DNA of 11,848 nucleotides from a virus (Duplodnaviria; Heunggongvirae; Uroviricota; Caudoviricetes): IMG/VR virus record IMGVR_UViG_2597490260_000009. One strand, written 5' to 3'. The position numbers and the translations under genes are program-made. Below, piece by piece: positions 1-11,848 of this stretch. The notes beneath the pieces are model-generated. The model did no database searches and had not been told where the DNA came from. It was given only the letters and a program-made list of their open reading frames with translations. Positions within the stretch are counted from its first letter, which is position 1. Every line of letters begins with the position of its first letter.

Positions 1-1
1 T

Positions 2-640
2 ATCTACGACGCTGTAACGTCTTCCGGTAATCCGTATTTAAAATTCATTGATAATATCGATAAAATAAAAAAACTTGCAAAAGATAAAACTGAACAACAG
101 CAAAAAAACCACTTGCTTAGTTTGCTCTACACGAATGTTATTACAGCTTTGGAAACGCTTTATGTTGAGCTATTCATTAATTCTATAGAGAAAGATGATG
201 TCTACATAGCCAATTGTATAGAAAAAGGTAAGACTGAATTTAAAGTAAGCAAAGATATTGCTGCGTTGCCTTTCAAGGGTGAACCCATCGAGAAAATTAG
301 GGGAGAGCTAATCAGGTCAATCAAGGAACACTTGATCAGTGCAAGCTGGCATAGCACTAAAAAGGTAATCGACCGCTATGAAGCTACATTCGATATAAAA
401 GTACAAAAAGACTGTCCGATAGAAGCTATTGAATTGGCAACCCTCAATCGAAATCACTTAGTGCATCGTGGTGGAAAGGATAAAGAAGGGAACCTCGTAG
501 TGATTACAGACCAGGATCTTGAAACGCTGATTGAAAATGCATCGAACCTGGCAATTATGCTCTACAACAGTTTAAATGTAGCAACGAATAAAACCACCAT
601 TTTGCAACCAGATGACAAACCGTTCATTCATGAATTTTAA
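2..640 (+). CDS. 5'-truncated CDS encoding a protein with a C-terminal HEPN-like Rx4H motif; putative RNase-type toxin or abortive-infection effector
   Basis: Frame is open from nt 2 to TAA at 638-640. The ORF track start at 113 is a TTG with no SD, so the true start is probably upstream of the window. R-N-H-L-V-H is encoded at nt 449-466 (ATLNRNHLVHRGG), matching the HEPN Rx4-6H signature. Region is visibly AT-rich compared with the prophage genes downstream. Confidence 0.6.
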   Translation: MYDAVTSSGNPYLKFIDNIDKIKKLAKDKTEQQQKNHLLSLLYTNVITALETLYVELFINSIEKDDVYIANCIEKGKTEFKVSKDIAALPFKGEPIEKIRGELIRSIKEHLISASWHSTKKVIDRYEATFDIKVQKDCPIEAIELATLNRNHLVHRGGKDKEGNLVVITDQDLETLIENASNLAIMLYNSLNVATNKTTILQPDDKPFIHEF

Positions 641-655
641 TAGCGCAGGTCATAC

Positions 656-1657
656 ATGGATATTCGCACACGAAAGACAAAATTTTTAGAGTCGTTAGAT
701 TCAACTGAAGTGATACGCAAAGCAGTAAGTCTCGCTATAGATTGCATTATTGATAATCATAATAGTAATGAAGATACCCCCTTAGTTATTACCAGCTATG
801 ATGATCTCTGTAGAATCCAGGTGCTAAATTATGTACAGGAGTTTTGCGAAGCTGCATTCCCTGATATGGATGAATATTACTTTAGTCCTAACATACTTCG
901 CATCAACGGCAAGACTAGTGAAGAAGCTTGTATTAACTTAATTAAACTCTTAAGAAGTACAAAAGGCATGCTATTCTGGTCCGATGCCCCATCGTGGTTC
1001 GCTAGCCTCCCCGACGGATTATTCCATGTTGTTAACATTGATCAAAAAATCGTTACTCGCGGCCTTAATAAGAAAAACTCTAAGCCGACAATAATCAATA
1101 AAGATTACAGTGTAGATACACTACTATCAGAGCTATTTTTGAATGGCGCACACATGGAGCAACCCAACGTACACAACGTTTCTGAGGGAAACATGAAGTT
1201 CTATGATGAATGCCATGCTGGATTAATCAGACCAATACCCGCTCCAATAGGCGCGTCATACGATGAAGAGATCACAATTAATTCTCCAGATTGGCAAAAG
1301 CTCGCGTGTGTAGCTTTACGCCGCTATCAGTCGAAGGAATGTCATGACGGAATGCAATGGGATACAACCGATCATGGTTGGACTGATGTAATCGCGTATC
1401 CATTCGTCGAAGAAATACAATCAATGGATAATAGTGGTTATCGACAATGTTTAGTTGGGCTGGTCACAATAAACAATTCAAATGCAAATTCTCCGTACCT
1501 ATCTACCGTTTGGATACATCCATTTTATCGCAGGAGAGGGTTATTAAGTAAGTTATGGCCAAAATTACAAGAGTTATATGGAAGTAACTTCGAAATTGAG
1601 CGACCTAATGAAAATATGAAAGCATTTCTGAAAAGTGCGAAACACGCAGATTACTAA
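656..1657 (+). CDS. Hypothetical 333-aa protein with a GNAT-like C-terminal region; likely operon partner of the upstream HEPN-motif gene
   Basis: ATG at 656 lies 15 nt after the upstream stop, on the same strand and with the same AT-rich composition. C-terminal segment LVGLVTIN...WIHPFYRRRGLLSKLW (nt ~1511-1560) resembles GNAT motif A (Q/R-x-x-G-x-G/A) but is degenerate. N-terminal ~250 aa has no motif I recognise. Confidence 0.6.
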   Translation: MDIRTRKTKFLESLDSTEVIRKAVSLAIDCIIDNHNSNEDTPLVITSYDDLCRIQVLNYVQEFCEAAFPDMDEYYFSPNILRINGKTSEEACINLIKLLRSTKGMLFWSDAPSWFASLPDGLFHVVNIDQKIVTRGLNKKNSKPTIINKDYSVDTLLSELFLNGAHMEQPNVHNVSEGNMKFYDECHAGLIRPIPAPIGASYDEEITINSPDWQKLACVALRRYQSKECHDGMQWDTTDHGWTDVIAYPFVEEIQSMDNSGYRQCLVGLVTINNSNANSPYLSTVWIHPFYRRRGLLSKLWPKLQELYGSNFEIERPNENMKAFLKSAKHADY

Positions 1658-1973
1658 TTTATGAATCAGTCTGTGGAGTTAGGGTTGGTGTCAACAAGTA
1701 GGGTAAGAGCCTCAACGTGATGCTATGCCGACCTGCTCCCTGAGAATTCACACAGAAGGCTGCTAGCAATGTCTGCAGATCGCTCAAAGCGGACTAGAAG
1801 GTTAGCTTGCGTCGGACTTGGCGTATTTAAAGAAGTGCTGGTGGTGACTGGTTGTTGTGTTCCATTTCTACAGAACAAAATCACAGAAACTATACCCAAT
1901 AGTTATATTGAATCAATGATGAGACAGCCTCATATTTATCAGAACTGGTGTACGTCCAATACAGGAGGTTGTC

Positions 1974-2063
1974 GTGCTGGTTCTCAAATGTGCGCTAGCT
2001 ATTGCGGCTGTAATGGCAATTTATTGTCTTGCTGTTGTTCTTATGGATCGCCTTTCTGATTGA
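1974..2063 (+). CDS. Candidate small hydrophobic peptide (29 aa, MLVLKCALAIAAVMAIYCLAVVLMDRLSD if GTG is read as Met)
   Basis: Consensus SD AGGAGG at 1963-1968, 5 nt before GTG at 1974; single predicted transmembrane helix; stop TGA 2061-2063. Too short for the ORF track. Confidence 0.3.
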   Translation: MLVLKCALAIAAVMAIYCLAVVLMDRLSD

Positions 2064-2274
2064 TTTTATATTGGCGAGGTGACGGGAGTTAAGTAGAATT
2101 GCTGCGGGTGCTTGAGGCTATCTGCCTCAGGCATGAACACCAAAGGCAGATAGAGAAAAGCCCCAGTTAATATTACGCGTCCTGCAAGACGCTTAACATT
2201 AATCTGAGGCTCAATCTATGAACGGCAAATCTAGGTTAGCCTCTTACGTGCCGAAAGGCAAGGAGAAGCAGGCT

Positions 2275-2430
2275 ATGAAGCAGCAAAAGGCGATGTTAAT
2301 CGCCCTGATCGTCATCTGTTTAACCGTCATAGTGACGGCACTGGTAACGAGGAAAGACCTCTGCGAGGTACGAATCCGAACCGGCCAGACGGAGGTCGCT
2401 GTCTTCACAGTTTACGAACCTGAGGAGTAA
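2275..2430 (+). CDS. hokD: Hok-family type I toxin, HokD-like (51 aa)
   Basis: Translation MKQQKAMLIALIVICLTVIVTALVTRKDLCEVRIRTGQTEVAVFTVYEPEE is near-identical to HokD as I recall it. SD AGGAG at 2261-2265. An in-frame upstream ATG at 2218 would give a 70-aa form. Confidence 0.85.
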   Translation: MKQQKAMLIALIVICLTVIVTALVTRKDLCEVRIRTGQTEVAVFTVYEPEE

Positions 2431-5699: not shown

Positions 5700-6824
5700 A
5701 TGCTTAATACTGTAAAAATATCCAGTTGTGAGTTAATCAACGCCGACTGCCTGGAATTTATCCGGTCGTTACCCGAAAATTCTGTTGACCTGATAGTCAC
5801 GGACCCGCCGTACTTTAAAGTGAAGCCTGAGGGCTGGGATAACCAGTGGAAGGGCGACGATGATTACCTGAAGTGGCTGGACCAGTGTCTGGCGCAGTTC
5901 TGGCGGGTGCTGAAACCTGCCGGAAGTCTTTACCTGTTCTGTGGTCATCGCCTGGCATCTGATATCGAAATCATGATGCGTGAACGCTTCAGTGTGCTGA
6001 ACCATATTATCTGGGCGAAGCCGTCCGGACGCTGGAACGGATGCAACAAGGAAAGCCTGCGGGCGTATTTCCCCGCCACAGAGCGCATTCTGTTCGCGGA
6101 ACATTATCAGGGGCCGTATCGTCCGAAAGATGCCGGGTATGCGGCGAAGGGCAGTGCACTGAAACAGCATGTGATGGCCCCGCTGATTTCTTACTTTCGT
6201 GATGCGCGCGCGGCCCTGGGGATAACGGCAAAACAGATTGCAGATGCCACAGGAAAGAAAAACATGGTGTCGCACTGGTTCAGTGCCAGTCAGTGGCAGC
6301 TACCGAATGAAAGCGATTATCTGAAATTACAGGCGCTGTTTGCCCGGGTGGCAGAAGAGAAGCATCGGCGTGGTGAACTGGAAAAGCTCCACCACCAGCT
6401 GGTGGATACGTATACCTCACTGAACCGGCAGTATGCGGAGCTGCTGAGTGAATATAAACATCTGCGGCGGTATTTTGGCGTGACGGTGCAGGTGCCGTAT
6501 ACCGATGTGTGGACGCATAAACCGGTGCAGTTCTATCCCGGNNNNNNNNNNNNNNNNNNNNNNNNNNNNNNNNNNNNNNNNNNNNNNNNNNNNNNNNNNN
6601 NNNNNNNNNNNNNNNNNNNNNNNNNNNNNNNNNNNCCGGCAGAAATGCTGCAGCAGATAATCAGCGCAAGTAGCCGTCCTGGTGATCTGGTTGCGGATTT
6701 TTTCATGGGGTCGGGTTCAACGGTAAAAGCGGCGATGGCACTGGGGCGTCGTGCGATTGGTGTTGAGCTGGAGACCGGACGTTTTGAGCAGACAGTCAGG
6801 GAAGTTCAGGATTTAATCGTTTGA
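5700..6824 (+). CDS. Orphan beta-class DNA amino-methyltransferase (probable N6-adenine); internal N-masked run
   Basis: Motif IV DPPY (LIVTDPPYF) near the N-terminus precedes motif I FxGxG (DLVADFFMGSGST) near the C-terminus, which is the beta-class order. No restriction endonuclease gene adjacent. Reading frame is continuous across the N run at 6542-6635. Confidence 0.85.
   Translation: MLNTVKISSCELINADCLEFIRSLPENSVDLIVTDPPYFKVKPEGWDNQWKGDDDYLKWLDQCLAQFWRVLKPAGSLYLFCGHRLASDIEIMMRERFSVLNHIIWAKPSGRWNGCNKESLRAYFPATERILFAEHYQGPYRPKDAGYAAKGSALKQHVMAPLISYFRDARAALGITAKQIADATGKKNMVSHWFSASQWQLPNESDYLKLQALFARVAEEKHRRGELEKLHHQLVDTYTSLNRQYAELLSEYKHLRRYFGVTVQVPYTDVWTHKPVQFYPXXXXXXXXXXXXXXXXXXXXXXXXXXXXXXXXPAEMLQQIISASSRPGDLVADFFMGSGSTVKAAMALGRRAIGVELETGRFEQTVREVQDLIV
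6542..6635. other. Run of 94 N (masked or unresolved sequence) inside the methyltransferase gene
   Basis: Direct observation. The flanking coding frame is preserved across it. Confidence 1.
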
Positions 6825-6873: not shown

Positions 6874-6949
6874 GGCCCTTTAGCTCAGTGGTGAGAGCGA
6901 GCGACTCATAATCGCCAGGTCGCTGGTTCAAATCCAGCAAGGGCCACCA
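6874..6949 (+). tRNA. ileZ: tRNA with CAU anticodon, tRNA-Ile2 (lysidine) type
   Basis: Manual cloverleaf: acceptor GGCCCTT/AAGGGCC, D-arm GCTC/GAGC, anticodon loop CTCATAA, T-arm GCTGG-TTCAAAT-CCAGC, discriminator A, CCA encoded. Closely resembles E. coli tRNA-Ile2 (ileX). Gene name is by analogy to the ileZ-argN-argO cluster of Stx phages. Confidence 0.8.
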
Positions 6950-6956
6950 TCACATA

Positions 6957-7033
6957 CCGCCATTAGCTCATCAGGAAAGAGCGCCAGCCTTCGAAGCTGG
7001 TTGCGCGGAGTTCGGGTCCCCGAAGGCGGTCCA
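6957..7033 (+). tRNA. argN: tRNA-Arg-like (anticodon UCG by manual fold); possibly degenerate
   Basis: Anticodon stem CCAGC/GCTGG with loop CTTCGAA. Acceptor stem has one A-A mismatch, T-loop is TTCGGGT (G where A58 is expected), and the T-stem has a mismatch. Name by analogy only. Confidence 0.55.
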
Positions 7034-7046
7034 TTATCTGTATCCT

Positions 7047-7123
7047 GCGTTGTTAGCTCAGCCGGACAGAGCAATTGCCTTCTAAGCAATCGGTCACTGG
7101 TTCGAATCCAGTACAACGCGCCA
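7047..7123 (+). tRNA. argO: tRNA-Arg (anticodon UCU, reads AGA)
   Basis: Acceptor GCGTTGT/ACAACGC, D-arm GCTC/GAGC, anticodon stem ATTGC/GCAAT with loop CTTCTAA, T-arm ACTGG-TTCGAAT-CCAGT, discriminator G, CCA encoded. Confidence 0.85.
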
Positions 7124-7162: not shown

Positions 7163-7383
7163 AAATGTCTCACAATTCAGGCGGTTGACTGTTGTCTGGT
7201 TTGCGGGGAGTTTGTTAAAAGAAACTGGCATGGTGAATCCCCCTGTGCGGAGGGGCAATCAGCGAGTAGGTATATGGGATAATCGCGGATTCAGGTGCTG
7301 GTACTGAATTCACCGGGAGGCACCCGGCACCATGCAATGGCACATAGCGCCACTCTCCAGCCCCTCTCCGGAGGGGCTTTTCT
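7161..7383 (+). repeat. Structured repeat unit A (candidate small-RNA gene)
   Basis: Collinear with unit B at a +468 offset: TTAAATG...CTCACAATTCAG, TTGACT (7185-7190), TTTGTTAAAA, GCATGGTGAATCCCCCTGTGCGGAGGGGC, CACCGGGAGGCACCCGGCACCATG, and terminator GCCCCTC-tccg-GAGGGGC + TTTTCT (7360-7383). The middle segment differs between units. Confidence 0.5.
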
Positions 7384-7572
7384 GTGCCGGATACATCACA
7401 GTTTCTGGAACCTTAGGTACTACAGTATCAGTCAGGGTGCTATATTTTCAGATGTGATGAAAGCCTGTCAGCAGGCAGGGCGTATCGGAAATGACCCAGT
7501 AGAGAAAACGTTGACTCAGATACCGGTGCTGAGTTACCGGGAAACCGGCATCACATGACCGCTATCCTTCCA

Positions 7573-7621: not shown

Positions 7622-7870
7622 TTAAATGCTATGTTGCTCACAATTCAGTAAGTTGACAGTTGCCTGTCAGACTGGGCATTTGTTAAAAAAATTTCGCATG
7701 GTGAATCCCCCTGAGCGGAGGGGCGACTGGTGACGGTATAATCTCTGATTATCAAAACGAGAATGACGCGGGTTTAGTGGCACCGGGCTGAACTCACCGG
7801 GAGGCACCCGGCACCATGTGCATGATGATACAGATACGCGGCTTTAGCCCCTCTCCGGAGGGGTTTTCTT
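7622..7870 (+). repeat. Structured repeat unit B (candidate small-RNA gene)
   Basis: Same conserved blocks as unit A: CTCACAATTCAG (7637-7648), TTGACA (7653-7658), TTTGTTAAAA, GCATGGTGAATCCCCCTGAGCGGAGGGGC, CACCGGGAGGCACCCGGCACCATG, and terminator CCCCTC-tccg-GAGGGG + TTTTCTT (7847-7870). Confidence 0.5.
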
Positions 7871-7877
7871 GTGGGCA

Positions 7878-9185: not shown

Positions 9186-9244
9186 NNNNNNNNNNNNNNN
9201 NNNNNNNNNNNNNNNNNNNNNNNNNNNNNNNNNNNNNNNNNNNN
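9186..9244. other. Run of 59 N (masked or unresolved sequence)
   Basis: Direct observation. Confidence 1.
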
Positions 9245-10842: not shown

Positions 10843-11149
10843 AAACCGGCCAAGGATAATCCGCTGAAGATTCGCCGGTGGCTAAAGTGTGCCAAGAGTT
10901 CAATTTACGCAATTACTCCTGTCGATGCTATGTACCGTCTTTGTGAAGTCAATGGATACCTGATTTATTTCTGTGCGCTGTATCGTCGCTGTACTCTTGC
11001 ATTAATTATGACTGTAGCCTGACGGGGAACTCCTTCTGCACAAGTGTGGGGGAATAATCAAAAACGATGCACACCGGGGTTACCGGGTACACATATTTCA
11101 TCATGCCAGCGAGTCCGGTTCTGGCACGGAAGAAACCGGACGTTATGAT

Positions 11150-11560
11150 TTAGTGCGGAAATATTTGTGTAGTGTTCTGAATGTTCTCAGTAAAGAGTAA
11201 TGAATTATCAAAGGTATAGTAATACCTTTTGTTTTCGTGGATATTTGTAATCCATCTGAAAACCCCTGCTGTAGCAAGATTTTTCCTGTATTCGTAAAAT
11301 GATAACTCTCCTGATTTGAATCCTTTTAAGGTGGCTTCTATAAGGCATTTATTTTTTGAAAATCTTACATTTACAACCTTACCCTGTCCTTTTATTAAAA
11401 CCGTATTATCGTTTTCAAGAACAAGATGAATATTCTCTGTGGCTAAATAGTAAATGTAATGTGAGACATTGTGACGTTTTAGTTCAGAATAAAACCAGTG
11501 ATAGTTTAAATTATTTCGCACTTTATCGAATATTTGTTTAAAAATGGCAATCTGAGCCAT
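11150..11560 (-). CDS. AT-rich hypothetical protein (136 aa), homolog of the lambda right-end ORF downstream of Rz
   Basis: Minus-strand ATG at 11560 (MAQIAIFKQ...) with SD GGAAGG. The DNA closely matches the lambda right-arm sequence between Rz and cos as I recall it. The ORF track start at 11575 has no SD. Confidence 0.65.
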
Positions 11561-11617
11561 TGTAGTACCTTCCATGTGATATGAGGGGGGGTAGTCTGCA
11601 CGATTATCTAAATTGCT

Positions 11618-11848
11618 TCAATCTGGTCTGACCTGTTTTCTGAGCAATTCAGTAATGTCACTCTTTTCTTTGTTTGCTTCAGGCGAAACTCTTTTTTCTG
11701 AGCACAGTCTCCGGCGGCAGGCTTCAATGACCCAGGCTGAGAAATTCCCGGACCCTTTTTGAACAAGAGCGATGTTAATTTGTTCAATCATTTGGTTAGG
11801 AAAGCGGATGTTGCGGGTTGTTGTTCTGCGGGTTCTGTTCTTCGTTGA
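11618..11848 (-). CDS. 5'-truncated small DNA-binding-like protein (YlcI/YnfO, DUF3950-like); start codon is just outside the window
   Basis: Minus-strand translation from the window edge: STKNRTRRTTTRNIRFPNQMIEQINIALVQKGSGNFSAWVIEACRRRL..., stop at 11620-11618. The DNA matches the lambda right end just before cos. Confidence 0.6.
   Translation of the reverse strand, partial: STKNRTRRTTTRNIRFPNQMIEQINIALVQKGSGNFSAWVIEACRRRLCSEKRVSPEANKEKSDITELLRKQVRPD

What the first reader, a model, noticed from the sequence alone, without database searches (positions are those of the whole stretch)
2..1657. AT-rich two-gene module pairing a HEPN-motif protein with a GNAT-like protein: candidate undescribed toxin or anti-phage system
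Two same-strand genes 15 nt apart are clearly AT-rich and sit directly upstream of GC-richer prophage genes, so they look like acquired cargo in the nin-region position where relBE would be in Qin-type prophages. The first protein carries R-N-H-L-V-H (nt 449-466) about 55 residues from its C-terminus, which fits the HEPN RNase active-site signature. The second has a degenerate GNAT-like motif A (IHPFYRRRGLLSKLW) and an N-terminal ~250 aa I cannot place. I do not recognise this pairing as a named system; HEPN effectors usually pair with MNT, RHH or ATPase partners. The first gene is cut by the window edge, so the module may be larger.
Basis: partly seen in the sequence, partly recalled or inferred. 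Interest (0 to 1): 0.75.

Follow-up and report, generated by a model that had tools for sequence, protein, structure and literature searches.

The report
Known HEPN anti-phage cassette DS-33
The two AT-rich genes are a real, mobile anti-phage cassette in an E. coli prophage, but it was tested and named DS-33 in 2026: the HEPN nuclease gene gives the protection and the GNAT-like gene was not needed against the phages tested.

Summary
Window 2-643 is the 3' two-thirds of a 320-aa gene (A). Window 656-1657 is a 333-aa gene (B), 15 nt downstream. Both have about 39% GC against about 50% in the surrounding prophage.

The pair is not undescribed. The same protein A, with B differing by one residue, is system DS-33 of DefensePredictor (Science 2026). 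In that study the wild type protects against T7, T3, Bas67 and Bas26. Deleting the HEPN gene or mutating R258A abolishes protection. Deleting the GNAT gene does not, and often increases it.

My comparative data agree that the pairing is facultative. The pair travels as a 2.24-kb unit in at least 14 contexts, yet A-only and B-only relatives both exist. One caveat is new: the tested B allele carries P289L at a family-invariant residue.

A side finding is that the cassette ends in conserved palindromes. These also bound other cargo, including PD-T7-1, in prophages and in arrays.

The parts
2..643 (+). 3' part of gene A (DS-33A, WP_014639476.1), codons 109-320 plus the stop codon. The full gene is 320 aa and starts 323 nt upstream of the window. 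It has an N-terminal HEPN/RES-NTD1-like domain (aa ~26-92, outside the window) and a C-terminal RiboL-PSP-type HEPN domain (aa ~125-310).
   Evidence: The protein sequence matches DS-33A in Table S8 of PMC13092281.
449..466 (+). HEPN active-site motif R258-N-H-L-V-H263, followed by R264.
   Evidence: R, H and R are invariant in 76 relatives. Published R258A abolishes defence in two replicates.
644..655 (+). Short A-B intergenic spacer. The gap between the A stop codon and the B start is 15 nt in 26 of the 27 paired loci listed, and 14 nt in the other.
656..1657 (+). Gene B (DS-33B type, WP_000354966.1), 333 aa. The N-terminal ~175 aa are an unplaced alpha/beta domain. Residues ~180-330 form a divergent GNAT fold.
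   Evidence: It differs from the tested DS-33B (WP_000354965.1) only at residue 289, P versus L.
1514..1558 (+). GNAT motif-A region IHPFYRRRGLLSKLW (B residues 287-301). W286, H288, P289 and R292 are invariant. G295 is present in 35 of 44 sequences. The usual final G/A position is Leu.
1762..1807 (.). Right arm of the 46-nt imperfect inverted repeat that flanks the cassette. The left arm lies outside the window, at L001 11542-11587.
   Evidence: 74% complementary, 2174 nt between the arms.
1771..1794 (.). Right-end palindrome GTCTGCAGATCGCTCAAAGCGGAC (R type). Similarity to cassette copies in other contexts, and to alternative cargo at the same site, ends or resumes here.

Best explanation
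The locus is the anti-phage system DS-33, carried on a 2.24-kb mobile cassette inserted in the early-right region of a Qin/Rac-like lambdoid prophage.

**Gene A is the effector.** It combines an N-terminal HEPN/RES-NTD1-type domain with a C-terminal RiboL-PSP-type HEPN domain.
- Shown: defence needs gene A and its Rx4H arginine R258, and does not need gene B.
- Inferred from what is established for HEPN proteins: A is held inactive in uninfected cells, is switched on by an infection cue read through its non-catalytic N-terminal part, and then cuts RNA (tRNA or mRNA) so that the phage cannot complete its cycle. I put this inferred chain at about 0.6.

**Gene B is an accessory GNAT-fold protein.** It was recruited downstream of A in one lineage and is co-transcribed with it. 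I think its most likely role is to temper or time A's activity, that is, a non-essential brake or protection against self-damage (about 0.4). An unrelated function of its own is about equally likely.

The overall confidence of 0.8 refers to the identity with DS-33 and to A being the HEPN effector that works without B.
For: **Identity**
- A is identical to DS-33A and B is 332/333 identical to DS-33B.

**Published plaque assays, as log10 protection in two replicates**

| Construct | T7 | T3 | Bas67 | Bas26 |
|---|---|---|---|---|
| Wild type | 3.8 / 2.6 | 3.3 / 2.4 | 4.0 / 2.0 | 5.0 / 5.9 |
| HEPN gene deleted | 0.1 / -0.3 | -0.5 / 0 | 0 / -0.2 | 0.5 / 0.3 |
| R258A | 0.8 / 0.5 | -0.3 / 0.3 | 0.5 / 0 | 0.7 / 0.4 |
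| GNAT gene deleted | 4.8 / 4.3 | 3.3 / 3.3 | 4.0 / 3.3 | 5.0 / 4.9 |

**HEPN assignment**
- Relatives pass the PF18735 gathering score: 28.5-36.1 bits against 28.4.
- The AF2 model has pLDDT 86.7.
- R258, H263 and R264 are invariant.

**N-terminal domain as a swappable module**
- PF18870 also occurs fused to a PIN nuclease, in P0117.

**A is self-sufficient in nature**
- Single-gene relatives at 73-80% identity sit between housekeeping genes, in a P2-type prophage locus next to an ApeA-like gene, or beside a ParE/HTH pair.

**A and B travel together**
- The 15-nt gap and sharp cassette borders are kept in at least 14 upstream and 16 downstream contexts.
- This holds while A diverges to 77% and B to 74% identity.
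- Both are under purifying selection: median dN/dS is 0.16 for A and 0.29 for B.

**B as a brake**
- Across the five phages tested, T5 included, deleting the GNAT gene raised protection in 6 of 10 comparisons, by 0.5-1.7 log.
Against: - No RNA cleavage, trigger or abortive-infection phenotype has been shown for this protein. The paper's main text does not discuss DS-33.
- A itself gives no PF18735 hit at E <= 5, and its PF18870 hit is below threshold at 22.2 against 27.4 bits.
- **Against a brake role for B.** The effect is small. It was measured on a plasmid, with a B allele (P289L) that may be crippled. It could also reflect altered expression.
- **For an independent role of B.** B-only cassettes keep both cassette ends and the putative promoter, and they have spread to several genera. 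Distant B homologues never sit beside an A homologue.
Confidence: 0.8

Rival explanations
1. Obligate two-gene toxin-antitoxin or abortive-infection pair. A is a constitutively toxic RNase, and B is an essential enzyme antitoxin that neutralises it, for example by acetylation, in the way MntA AMPylates HepT.
For: - The fixed 15-nt spacing and co-divergence fit a coupled pair.
- In the paired clade, gene A has been deleted at least three independent times while B and both cassette ends were kept. The junctions are L001 11654|12577, 11611|12599, and a truncation at 12445.
- Four of 208 E. coli genomes cover less than 80% of A while all 208 cover at least 80% of B. AHB12, where IS1 removes the 5' half of A, is one of them.
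Against: - The GNAT-deletion strain was viable and defended as well as or better than wild type.
- Strain SF-173 has intact A with B split by IS1.
- A-only relatives at 73-80% identity exist without any B.
Confidence: 0.05
2. Two independent cargo genes share one cassette. A is a complete single-gene defence. B has its own function that has nothing to do with A, for example a second defence against other phages, an anti-defence, or modification of a host or phage protein.
For: - B-only cassettes occur in Rahnella, Enterobacter, Citrobacter and Mangrovibacter with B intact. Within one deletion lineage dN/dS is 0.07.
- B homologues at 33-62% identity in marine gammaproteobacteria never have A nearby.
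- The GNAT half also exists as stand-alone proteins of about 160 aa.
- The best Foldseek hits are protein lysine acetyltransferases: HAT1, ESCO1 and MYST.
Against: - B alone (HEPN gene deleted) gave no protection against the five phages tested.
- The tight 15-nt coupling has been kept through about 25% protein divergence.
- Protection shifts upward when B is removed.
Confidence: 0.35
3. B is the toxin, a GNAT toxin like TacT or AtaT that acetylates aminoacyl-tRNA, and A is its antitoxin or regulator.
For: Only the GNAT fold.
Against: - B is 333 aa and has no RHH/DUF1778 partner.
- B-only cassettes are common.
- Defence depends on A's HEPN arginine and not on B.
Confidence: 0.02

Closest known systems
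DS-33 (working name 'GNAT') of DefensePredictor, DeWeirdt et al., Science 2026, PMC13092281
   Same: It is the same system. DS-33A is WP_014639476.1, identical to gene A. DS-33B is WP_000354965.1, 332/333 identical to gene B. The genes have the same order and spacing, and the system comes from an ECOR E. coli strain.
   Different: The window's B allele has Pro at the invariant residue 289, where the tested allele has Leu. All 58 B copies in my loci have Pro.
PD-T4-2 (Vassallo et al. 2022)
   Same: Its B protein carries a RiboL-PSP-type HEPN domain (PF18735). The DefensePredictor authors list PD-T4-2_B as A's best remote hit, with a value of 96.1 and 0.55 of the length covered.
   Different: The partner in PD-T4-2 is a DUF262 protein, not a GNAT. 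PADLOC scans listed no PD-T4-2 model for A at E <= 5 or for B at E <= 1. A carries an extra NTD1 domain.
Single-protein HEPN defences: ApeA, HepS, Tha, DARNA/PD-T7-3
   Same: Each has one polypeptide with an Rx4H HEPN domain plus a non-catalytic domain. Where studied, a phage cue activates them and they cut tRNA (review passages; Tha abstract). The GNAT-deletion result puts A in this class.
   Different: There is no detectable sequence relationship beyond the HEPN fold. The sensor domain differs (HEPN/RES-NTD1). The trigger and RNA target of A are unknown.
HepT-MntA (HEPN-MNT) type VII toxin-antitoxin
   Different: The partner there is a nucleotidyltransferase and is essential. Here the partner has a GNAT fold and is dispensable.
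Integron gene cassettes, for the cassette architecture
   Same: Both have short promoter-plus-cargo units bounded by conserved imperfect palindromes, found singly or in head-to-tail arrays, and often carrying defence genes.
   Different: The ends show no RYYYAAC or GTTRRRY cores by eye. No integrase gene accompanies the cassettes consistently in the loci examined. Each cassette has one palindrome at each end rather than one attC. Exchange is seen inside lambdoid prophages.

Membership tests
DS-33 (DefensePredictor) | The two proteins of the validated transcription unit, in the same order | tested here: met
   The A sequence is identical. B differs at one residue (P289L). Gene order and spacing are the same.
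HEPN superfamily | Four-helix up-and-down bundle fold | tested here: met
HEPN superfamily | Conserved Rx4-6H motif | tested here: met
   R258-x4-H263 is invariant in 76 sequences. Published R258A is defective.
HEPN superfamily | Metal-independent endoribonuclease activity | not testable with these tools
   No biochemical data were found for this protein.
RiboL-PSP-HEPN (Pfam PF18735) | Score at or above the Pfam gathering threshold (28.4 bits) | tested here: inconclusive
   A itself gives no hit at E <= 5. Full-length relatives at 35-59% identity score 28.5-36.1 bits. The authors' HHpred analysis instead names PF18737 at probability 0.98.
HEPN/RES N-terminal domain 1 (PF18870) | Score at or above the gathering threshold (27.4 bits) | tested here: inconclusive
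   A scores 22.2 bits at aa 26-92. Relatives score 20.8-28.7 bits, and many carry the precomputed annotation.
GNAT acetyltransferases (PF00583) | GNAT alpha/beta fold | tested here: met
GNAT acetyltransferases (PF00583) | Pfam gathering threshold (20.7 bits) | tested here: not met
   B scores 19.9 bits. Some relatives pass, for example P0198 at 24.2, and P0164 and P0166 carry the precomputed annotation.
GNAT acetyltransferases (PF00583) | Motif A, Q/R-x-x-G-x-G/A, which binds the CoA pyrophosphate | tested here: inconclusive
   B has R292-R-R-G295-L-L297. R292 is invariant, G295 is present in 35 of 44 sequences, and the last position is never G or A.
PD-T4-2 | DUF262 partner, and a match to the PD-T4-2 PADLOC models | tested here: not met
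   PADLOC scans listed no PD-T4-2 model for A at E <= 5 or for B at E <= 1. The partner here has a GNAT fold, not DUF262.
HEPN-MNT type VII toxin-antitoxin | Adjacent minimal nucleotidyltransferase that is needed to neutralise the HEPN toxin | tested here: not met
   The cassette holds no MNT gene. The partner is dispensable in published data.
GNAT-RHH toxin-antitoxin (TacT/AtaT type) | A GNAT toxin of about 170 aa with an upstream RHH/DUF1778 antitoxin | tested here: not met
   B is 333 aa. Its upstream gene is a HEPN protein, or nothing in the B-only cassettes.
Integron cassette | A single attC site with R''/R' core sites, and an IntI integrase with attI | tested here: not met
   Each cassette has two end palindromes of the form GTCCGC-N12-GCGGAC, and no RYYYAAC or GTTRRRY cores are visible in the end alignments. 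No integrase gene accompanies the cassettes consistently in the loci examined.

The most novel reading that the evidence does not exclude
The GNAT-fold protein is an active acetyltransferase that covalently restrains the HEPN nuclease or its activator. That would be an acetylation-based, non-essential counterpart of HepT-MntA control. B-only cassettes would then be mobile antidotes that let other elements escape DS-33A. The published finding that the GNAT gene is dispensable would understate B's role, because the tested allele carries P289L at an invariant residue.
Probability: 0.15. Interest if true: 0.65.

Novelty: already known. Interest (0 to 1): 0.3.

Why it matters
As a discovery it adds little. 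Three points remain open.

1. **Trigger and RNA target of DS-33A.** Both are unknown.
2. **Role of the GNAT-like partner.** It has been conserved next to A through about 25% protein divergence, yet it was dispensable in the assay. The only allele tested carries a substitution at an invariant residue, so its role has not been properly tested.
3. **How the cassette moves.** It is one of a set of palindrome-bounded cassettes that replace one another exactly in lambdoid prophages and form arrays in enterobacterial islands. Known or candidate defence genes are among their cargo. This may explain how such genes are shuffled. I found no description of it in the papers I could search.

Tried and rejected
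- **Annotation scans found nothing usable.** PADLOC and NCBIfam gave no significant family for either protein. PHROGs gave only families of unknown function.
- **Profile searches against PDB sequences.** Nothing meaningful.
- **The afdb50 fold library.** Not available.
- **First impression that the pair exists only in near-identical copies.** Rejected after the metagenome and contig look-ups.
- **Idea that unknown genes upstream of distant B homologues are cryptic HEPN proteins.** hhalign probability was below 1%.
- **Idea of a strict asymmetry, with B kept and A lost, as for an antitoxin.** Weakened by A-only relatives at 76-80% identity and by SF-173.
- **Simple sigma-70 scan.** It found no promoter in the cassette's left end. 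By eye there is an extended -10, TGgTATAAT, at L001 11636-11644. This is unproven.
- **Covariation in the end palindromes.** The stems are conserved in sequence with few compensatory changes, so there is no evidence for an RNA structure.
- **STnc100 versus the prophage sRNA svsR.** Not linked: the svsR paper never mentions STnc100 and places svsR at the 3' end of cI, which is not in this window.
- **Literature searches for the palindrome-bounded cassettes.** Nothing found.
Full report
**1. What is in the sequence**

On the + strand, frame 2 is open from nt 2 to a TAA at 641-643. A second ORF runs 656-1657, 333 aa. The codons for R-N-H-L-V-H lie at nt 449-466, and IHPFYRRRGLLSKLW is residues 287-301 of the second protein.

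GC is 0.39 for window 1-1794 against 0.50 for the rest.

Window 1-2200 is 100% identical to E. coli UTI89, APEC O1, S88, IHE3034 and others. In UTI89 the region lies in a lambdoid prophage integrated beside ompW. The local gene order is cro/cI-type regulators, YdaT, a replication gene, DUF977, **gene A, gene B**, hokD, DUF968, rusA, Q, a DNA methyltransferase, three tRNAs and the lysis genes.

Gene A is 320 aa in full. It starts with GTG 323 nt upstream of window position 1. RefSeq calls both proteins hypothetical: WP_014639476.1 and WP_000354966.1.

**2. What the two proteins are**

*Protein A*
- The full-length protein gives a sub-threshold hit to PF18870, "HEPN/RES N-terminal domain 1", at aa 26-92: 22.2 bits against a cut-off of 27.4.
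- Its family has 122 clusters in Enterobacterales, Aeromonas and beyond. Members at 35-59% identity pass the gathering score of PF18735, RiboL-PSP-HEPN, with 28.5-36.1 bits against 28.4.
- In an alignment of 76 members, R258, H263 and R264 are invariant, as is a W-H pair at 224-225.
- The NTD1 domain also occurs fused to a PIN nuclease, in P0117. That fits a swappable non-catalytic module.

*Protein B*
- It misses the Pfam GNAT threshold narrowly, 19.9 against 20.7 bits at aa 264-311.
- The best Foldseek hits are protein acetyltransferases: HAT1, ESCO1 and MYST.
- A profile search of 1.84 billion representatives shows that residues ~180-330 also exist as stand-alone proteins of about 160 aa. 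The full two-domain architecture is rare, about ten clusters at 50% identity.
- In motif A, R292 is invariant, G295 is present in 35 of 44 sequences, and the last position is Leu, Met or Ile rather than Gly or Ala.
- The N-terminal ~175 residues could not be placed.

**3. It is already a named, tested system**

A search of supplementary tables found WP_014639476.1 in DefensePredictor (DeWeirdt et al., Science 2026, PMC13092281).

- **Table S6.** It lists the unit "GNAT" (WP_014639476.1 plus WP_000354965.1, from an ECOR assembly) as defensive, with the name DS-33.
- **Table S7.** It gives two replicates of log10 protection, reproduced in the table below.

| Construct | T7 | T3 | Bas67 | Bas26 | T5 |
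|---|---|---|---|---|---|
| Wild type | 3.8 / 2.6 | 3.3 / 2.4 | 4.0 / 2.0 | 5.0 / 5.9 | 0.8 / 0.1 |
| HEPN gene deleted | 0.1 / -0.3 | -0.5 / 0 | 0 / -0.2 | 0.5 / 0.3 | 0.5 / 0.1 |
| R258A | 0.8 / 0.5 | -0.3 / 0.3 | 0.5 / 0 | 0.7 / 0.4 | 0.4 / 0.3 |
| GNAT gene deleted | 4.8 / 4.3 | 3.3 / 3.3 | 4.0 / 3.3 | 5.0 / 4.9 | 1.7 / 0.5 |

The HEPN gene and its Rx4H arginine are required. The GNAT gene is not, and removing it raised protection in 6 of 10 comparisons.

The authors annotate DS-33A residues 144-306 as HEPN. They list PD-T4-2_B as its best remote relative. DS-33 is not discussed in the main text.

PD-T4-2 pairs a DUF262 protein with a RiboL-PSP HEPN protein. Our proteins do not match its PADLOC models.

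One caveat is new here. The tested B allele differs from the window's B at a single residue, P289L. P289 is invariant in 44 of 44 family members, and all 58 full-length B copies in the loci I collected have Pro. The tested partner may therefore have been impaired.

**4. Is the pairing real in evolution?**

*Evidence for a linked pair*
- Wherever A is at least 83% identical, B follows it. This covers E. coli prophages, Serratia grimesii, Aeromonas beside TIR and SIR2 genes, and many metagenome contigs. One locus with A at 77.5% also has B.
- The gap is 15 nt in 26 of the 27 paired loci listed, and 14 nt in the other.
- Nucleotide similarity to the UTI89 copy starts at L001 11555 and ends at 13795, which is window 1795. 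It is flanked by unrelated DNA in at least 14 upstream and 16 downstream contexts.
- Median dN/dS is 0.16 for A and 0.29 for B.

*Evidence that the pairing is facultative*
- **A alone.** Relatives at 73-80% identity stand alone. One sits between a CxxCxxCC gene and sucD and is followed by its own terminator-like hairpin. Others sit in a P2-type prophage locus next to an ApeA-like gene, or beside a ParE/HTH pair. More distant relatives sit next to integrases, next to Mrr, or inside Mu-like head modules.
- **B alone, by loss of A.** B copies at 86-91% identity in Rahnella, Enterobacter, Citrobacter and Mangrovibacter are deletion derivatives of the cassette. They keep the left end (L001 11554-11654) fused to the last codons of A and to B. 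There are at least three different junctions.
- **B alone, distant.** B homologues at 33-62% identity never have A nearby.
- **Within E. coli.** 208 of 5426 complete genomes carry the cassette. Four cover less than 80% of A while all 208 cover at least 80% of B. One of the four is AHB12, where IS1 removes the 5' half of A. SF-173 has intact A and an IS1-split B.

Together with the viable, defending GNAT-deletion strain, this rules out B as an essential antitoxin.

**5. Most likely mechanism**

- **Shown:** defence depends on A and on R258, and is independent of B for the phages tested.
- **Inferred for A,** from established HEPN biology (Anantharaman et al. 2013; ApeA, HepS, Tha and DARNA as summarised): A is an RNase that is silent until an infection cue is sensed through its non-catalytic part, and it then cuts tRNA or mRNA.
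- **Inferred for B:** a dispensable partner, with two readings that the data cannot separate.
  - It may be a mild brake on A. This is supported by the upward shift in the GNAT-deletion strain and by the conserved coupling.
  - It may be a gene with its own function. This is supported by the mobile B-only cassettes and the distant solitary homologues.

**6. Cassette ends (side finding)**

- **End structure.** The cassette is flanked by a 46-nt imperfect inverted repeat, L001 11542-11587 and 13762-13807 (window 1762-1807), 74% complementary. Similarity between contexts begins exactly at a palindrome GTCCGCTTTGTGCCAAnAGCGGAC followed by ATTGCTGGC (L type). It ends exactly at GCTAGCAAT followed by GTCYGY-N-TCGCTCAnAGCGGAC (R type, window 1771-1794).
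- **Arrays.** In several enterobacterial loci the same palindromes recur as R, then 14-22 nt, then L junctions, every 0.2-3 kb. These are head-to-tail arrays of cassettes. Shuffled loci give about 1.2 loose matches each.
- **Exact replacement, site 1.** A prophage with the same flanks as UTI89 carries a different 1-kb cargo between the same palindromes (L146).
- **Exact replacement, site 2.** In a Qin-like prophage the A-B cassette replaces the ydfV-flxA segment of K-12 (1646011-1646982) between an L and an R palindrome next to relB (L014).
- **Distribution.** An L-type match is found in 3521 of 5426 E. coli genomes.
- **Other cargo.** This includes PD-T7-1 and the PADLOC candidate PDC-S39. 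Most cargo proteins have no family.
- **What is missing.** I saw no target-site duplication, no canonical attC cores and no consistently associated integrase. The stems are conserved in sequence rather than covarying.
- **Open question.** Exchange could be site-specific, or it could be homologous recombination at shared boundary sequences. Two literature searches found no description of these cassettes.

**7. Verdict**

It is wrong that the system is undescribed, and wrong to treat the two genes as an obligate pair.

Novelty: already known (DS-33).

Three things are worth keeping: the P289L caveat on the only test of the GNAT gene, the facultative history of the pairing, and the palindrome-bounded cassette exchange.

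Noticed in passing
window 1762-1807 (right end); left end at L001 11542-11587; also L014, L103, L105, L108, L109, L134, L138, L145-L147, and K-12 1645981-1646995: Palindromes of the form GTCCGC-N12-GCGGAC, in L and R types, bound the A-B cassette. They also bound other cargo, singly in lambdoid prophages and as head-to-tail arrays in enterobacterial islands. Cargo is replaced exactly between identical flanks. It includes PD-T7-1, PDC-S39 and the K-12 ydfV-flxA segment. I found no published description.
   Followed up: partly
B residue 289 (window 1520-1522): The only experimentally tested DS-33B allele (WP_000354965.1) has Leu at this position. It is Pro in 44 of 44 family members and in 58 of 58 sampled copies, including this window. 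The published result that the GNAT gene is dispensable may therefore rest on an impaired allele.
   Followed up: yes
L001 11636-11644 (outside the window, 34 nt upstream of the A start codon): A perfect extended -10 element, TGgTATAAT, with a weak -35, lies inside the cassette's left end. It is retained in all A-deletion (B-only) derivatives. The consensus scan missed it.
   Followed up: partly
window 2106-2430: A hok/sok type I toxin-antitoxin locus lies just downstream of the cassette: an Rfam sok match at 2106-2280 and hokD at 2275-2430. In K-12 Qin, relB-relE abut hokD directly.
   Followed up: partly
window 7199-7389 and 7667-7876: There are two tandem copies of the sRNA family STnc100 (Rfam RF02076, 136 and 161 bits), downstream of three tRNA genes at 6874-7120. 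I found no link to the prophage sRNA svsR described for strain NC101: that paper never mentions STnc100 and places svsR at the 3' end of cI.
   Followed up: partly
window 6542-6635 and 9186-9244: Two runs of N (masked sequence) interrupt the DNA methyltransferase ORF and the region upstream of the lysozyme gene. ORFs that cross them are unreliable.
   Followed up: no
window 11000-11800: A second AT-rich patch (GC 0.33-0.38) holds a minus-strand 141-aa ORF at 11150-11575. UTI89 annotates a DUF1398 protein at the equivalent position, followed by ynfO, between the lysis genes and the terminase. This may be another cargo site.
   Followed up: no
L086-L089 (Aeromonas): In Aeromonas the A-B pair lacks the enterobacterial end palindromes. 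It sits with conserved 138-aa and 106-aa neighbours beside TIR and SIR2-STALD genes, in one case next to an integron-like aadA/integrase region.
   Followed up: no
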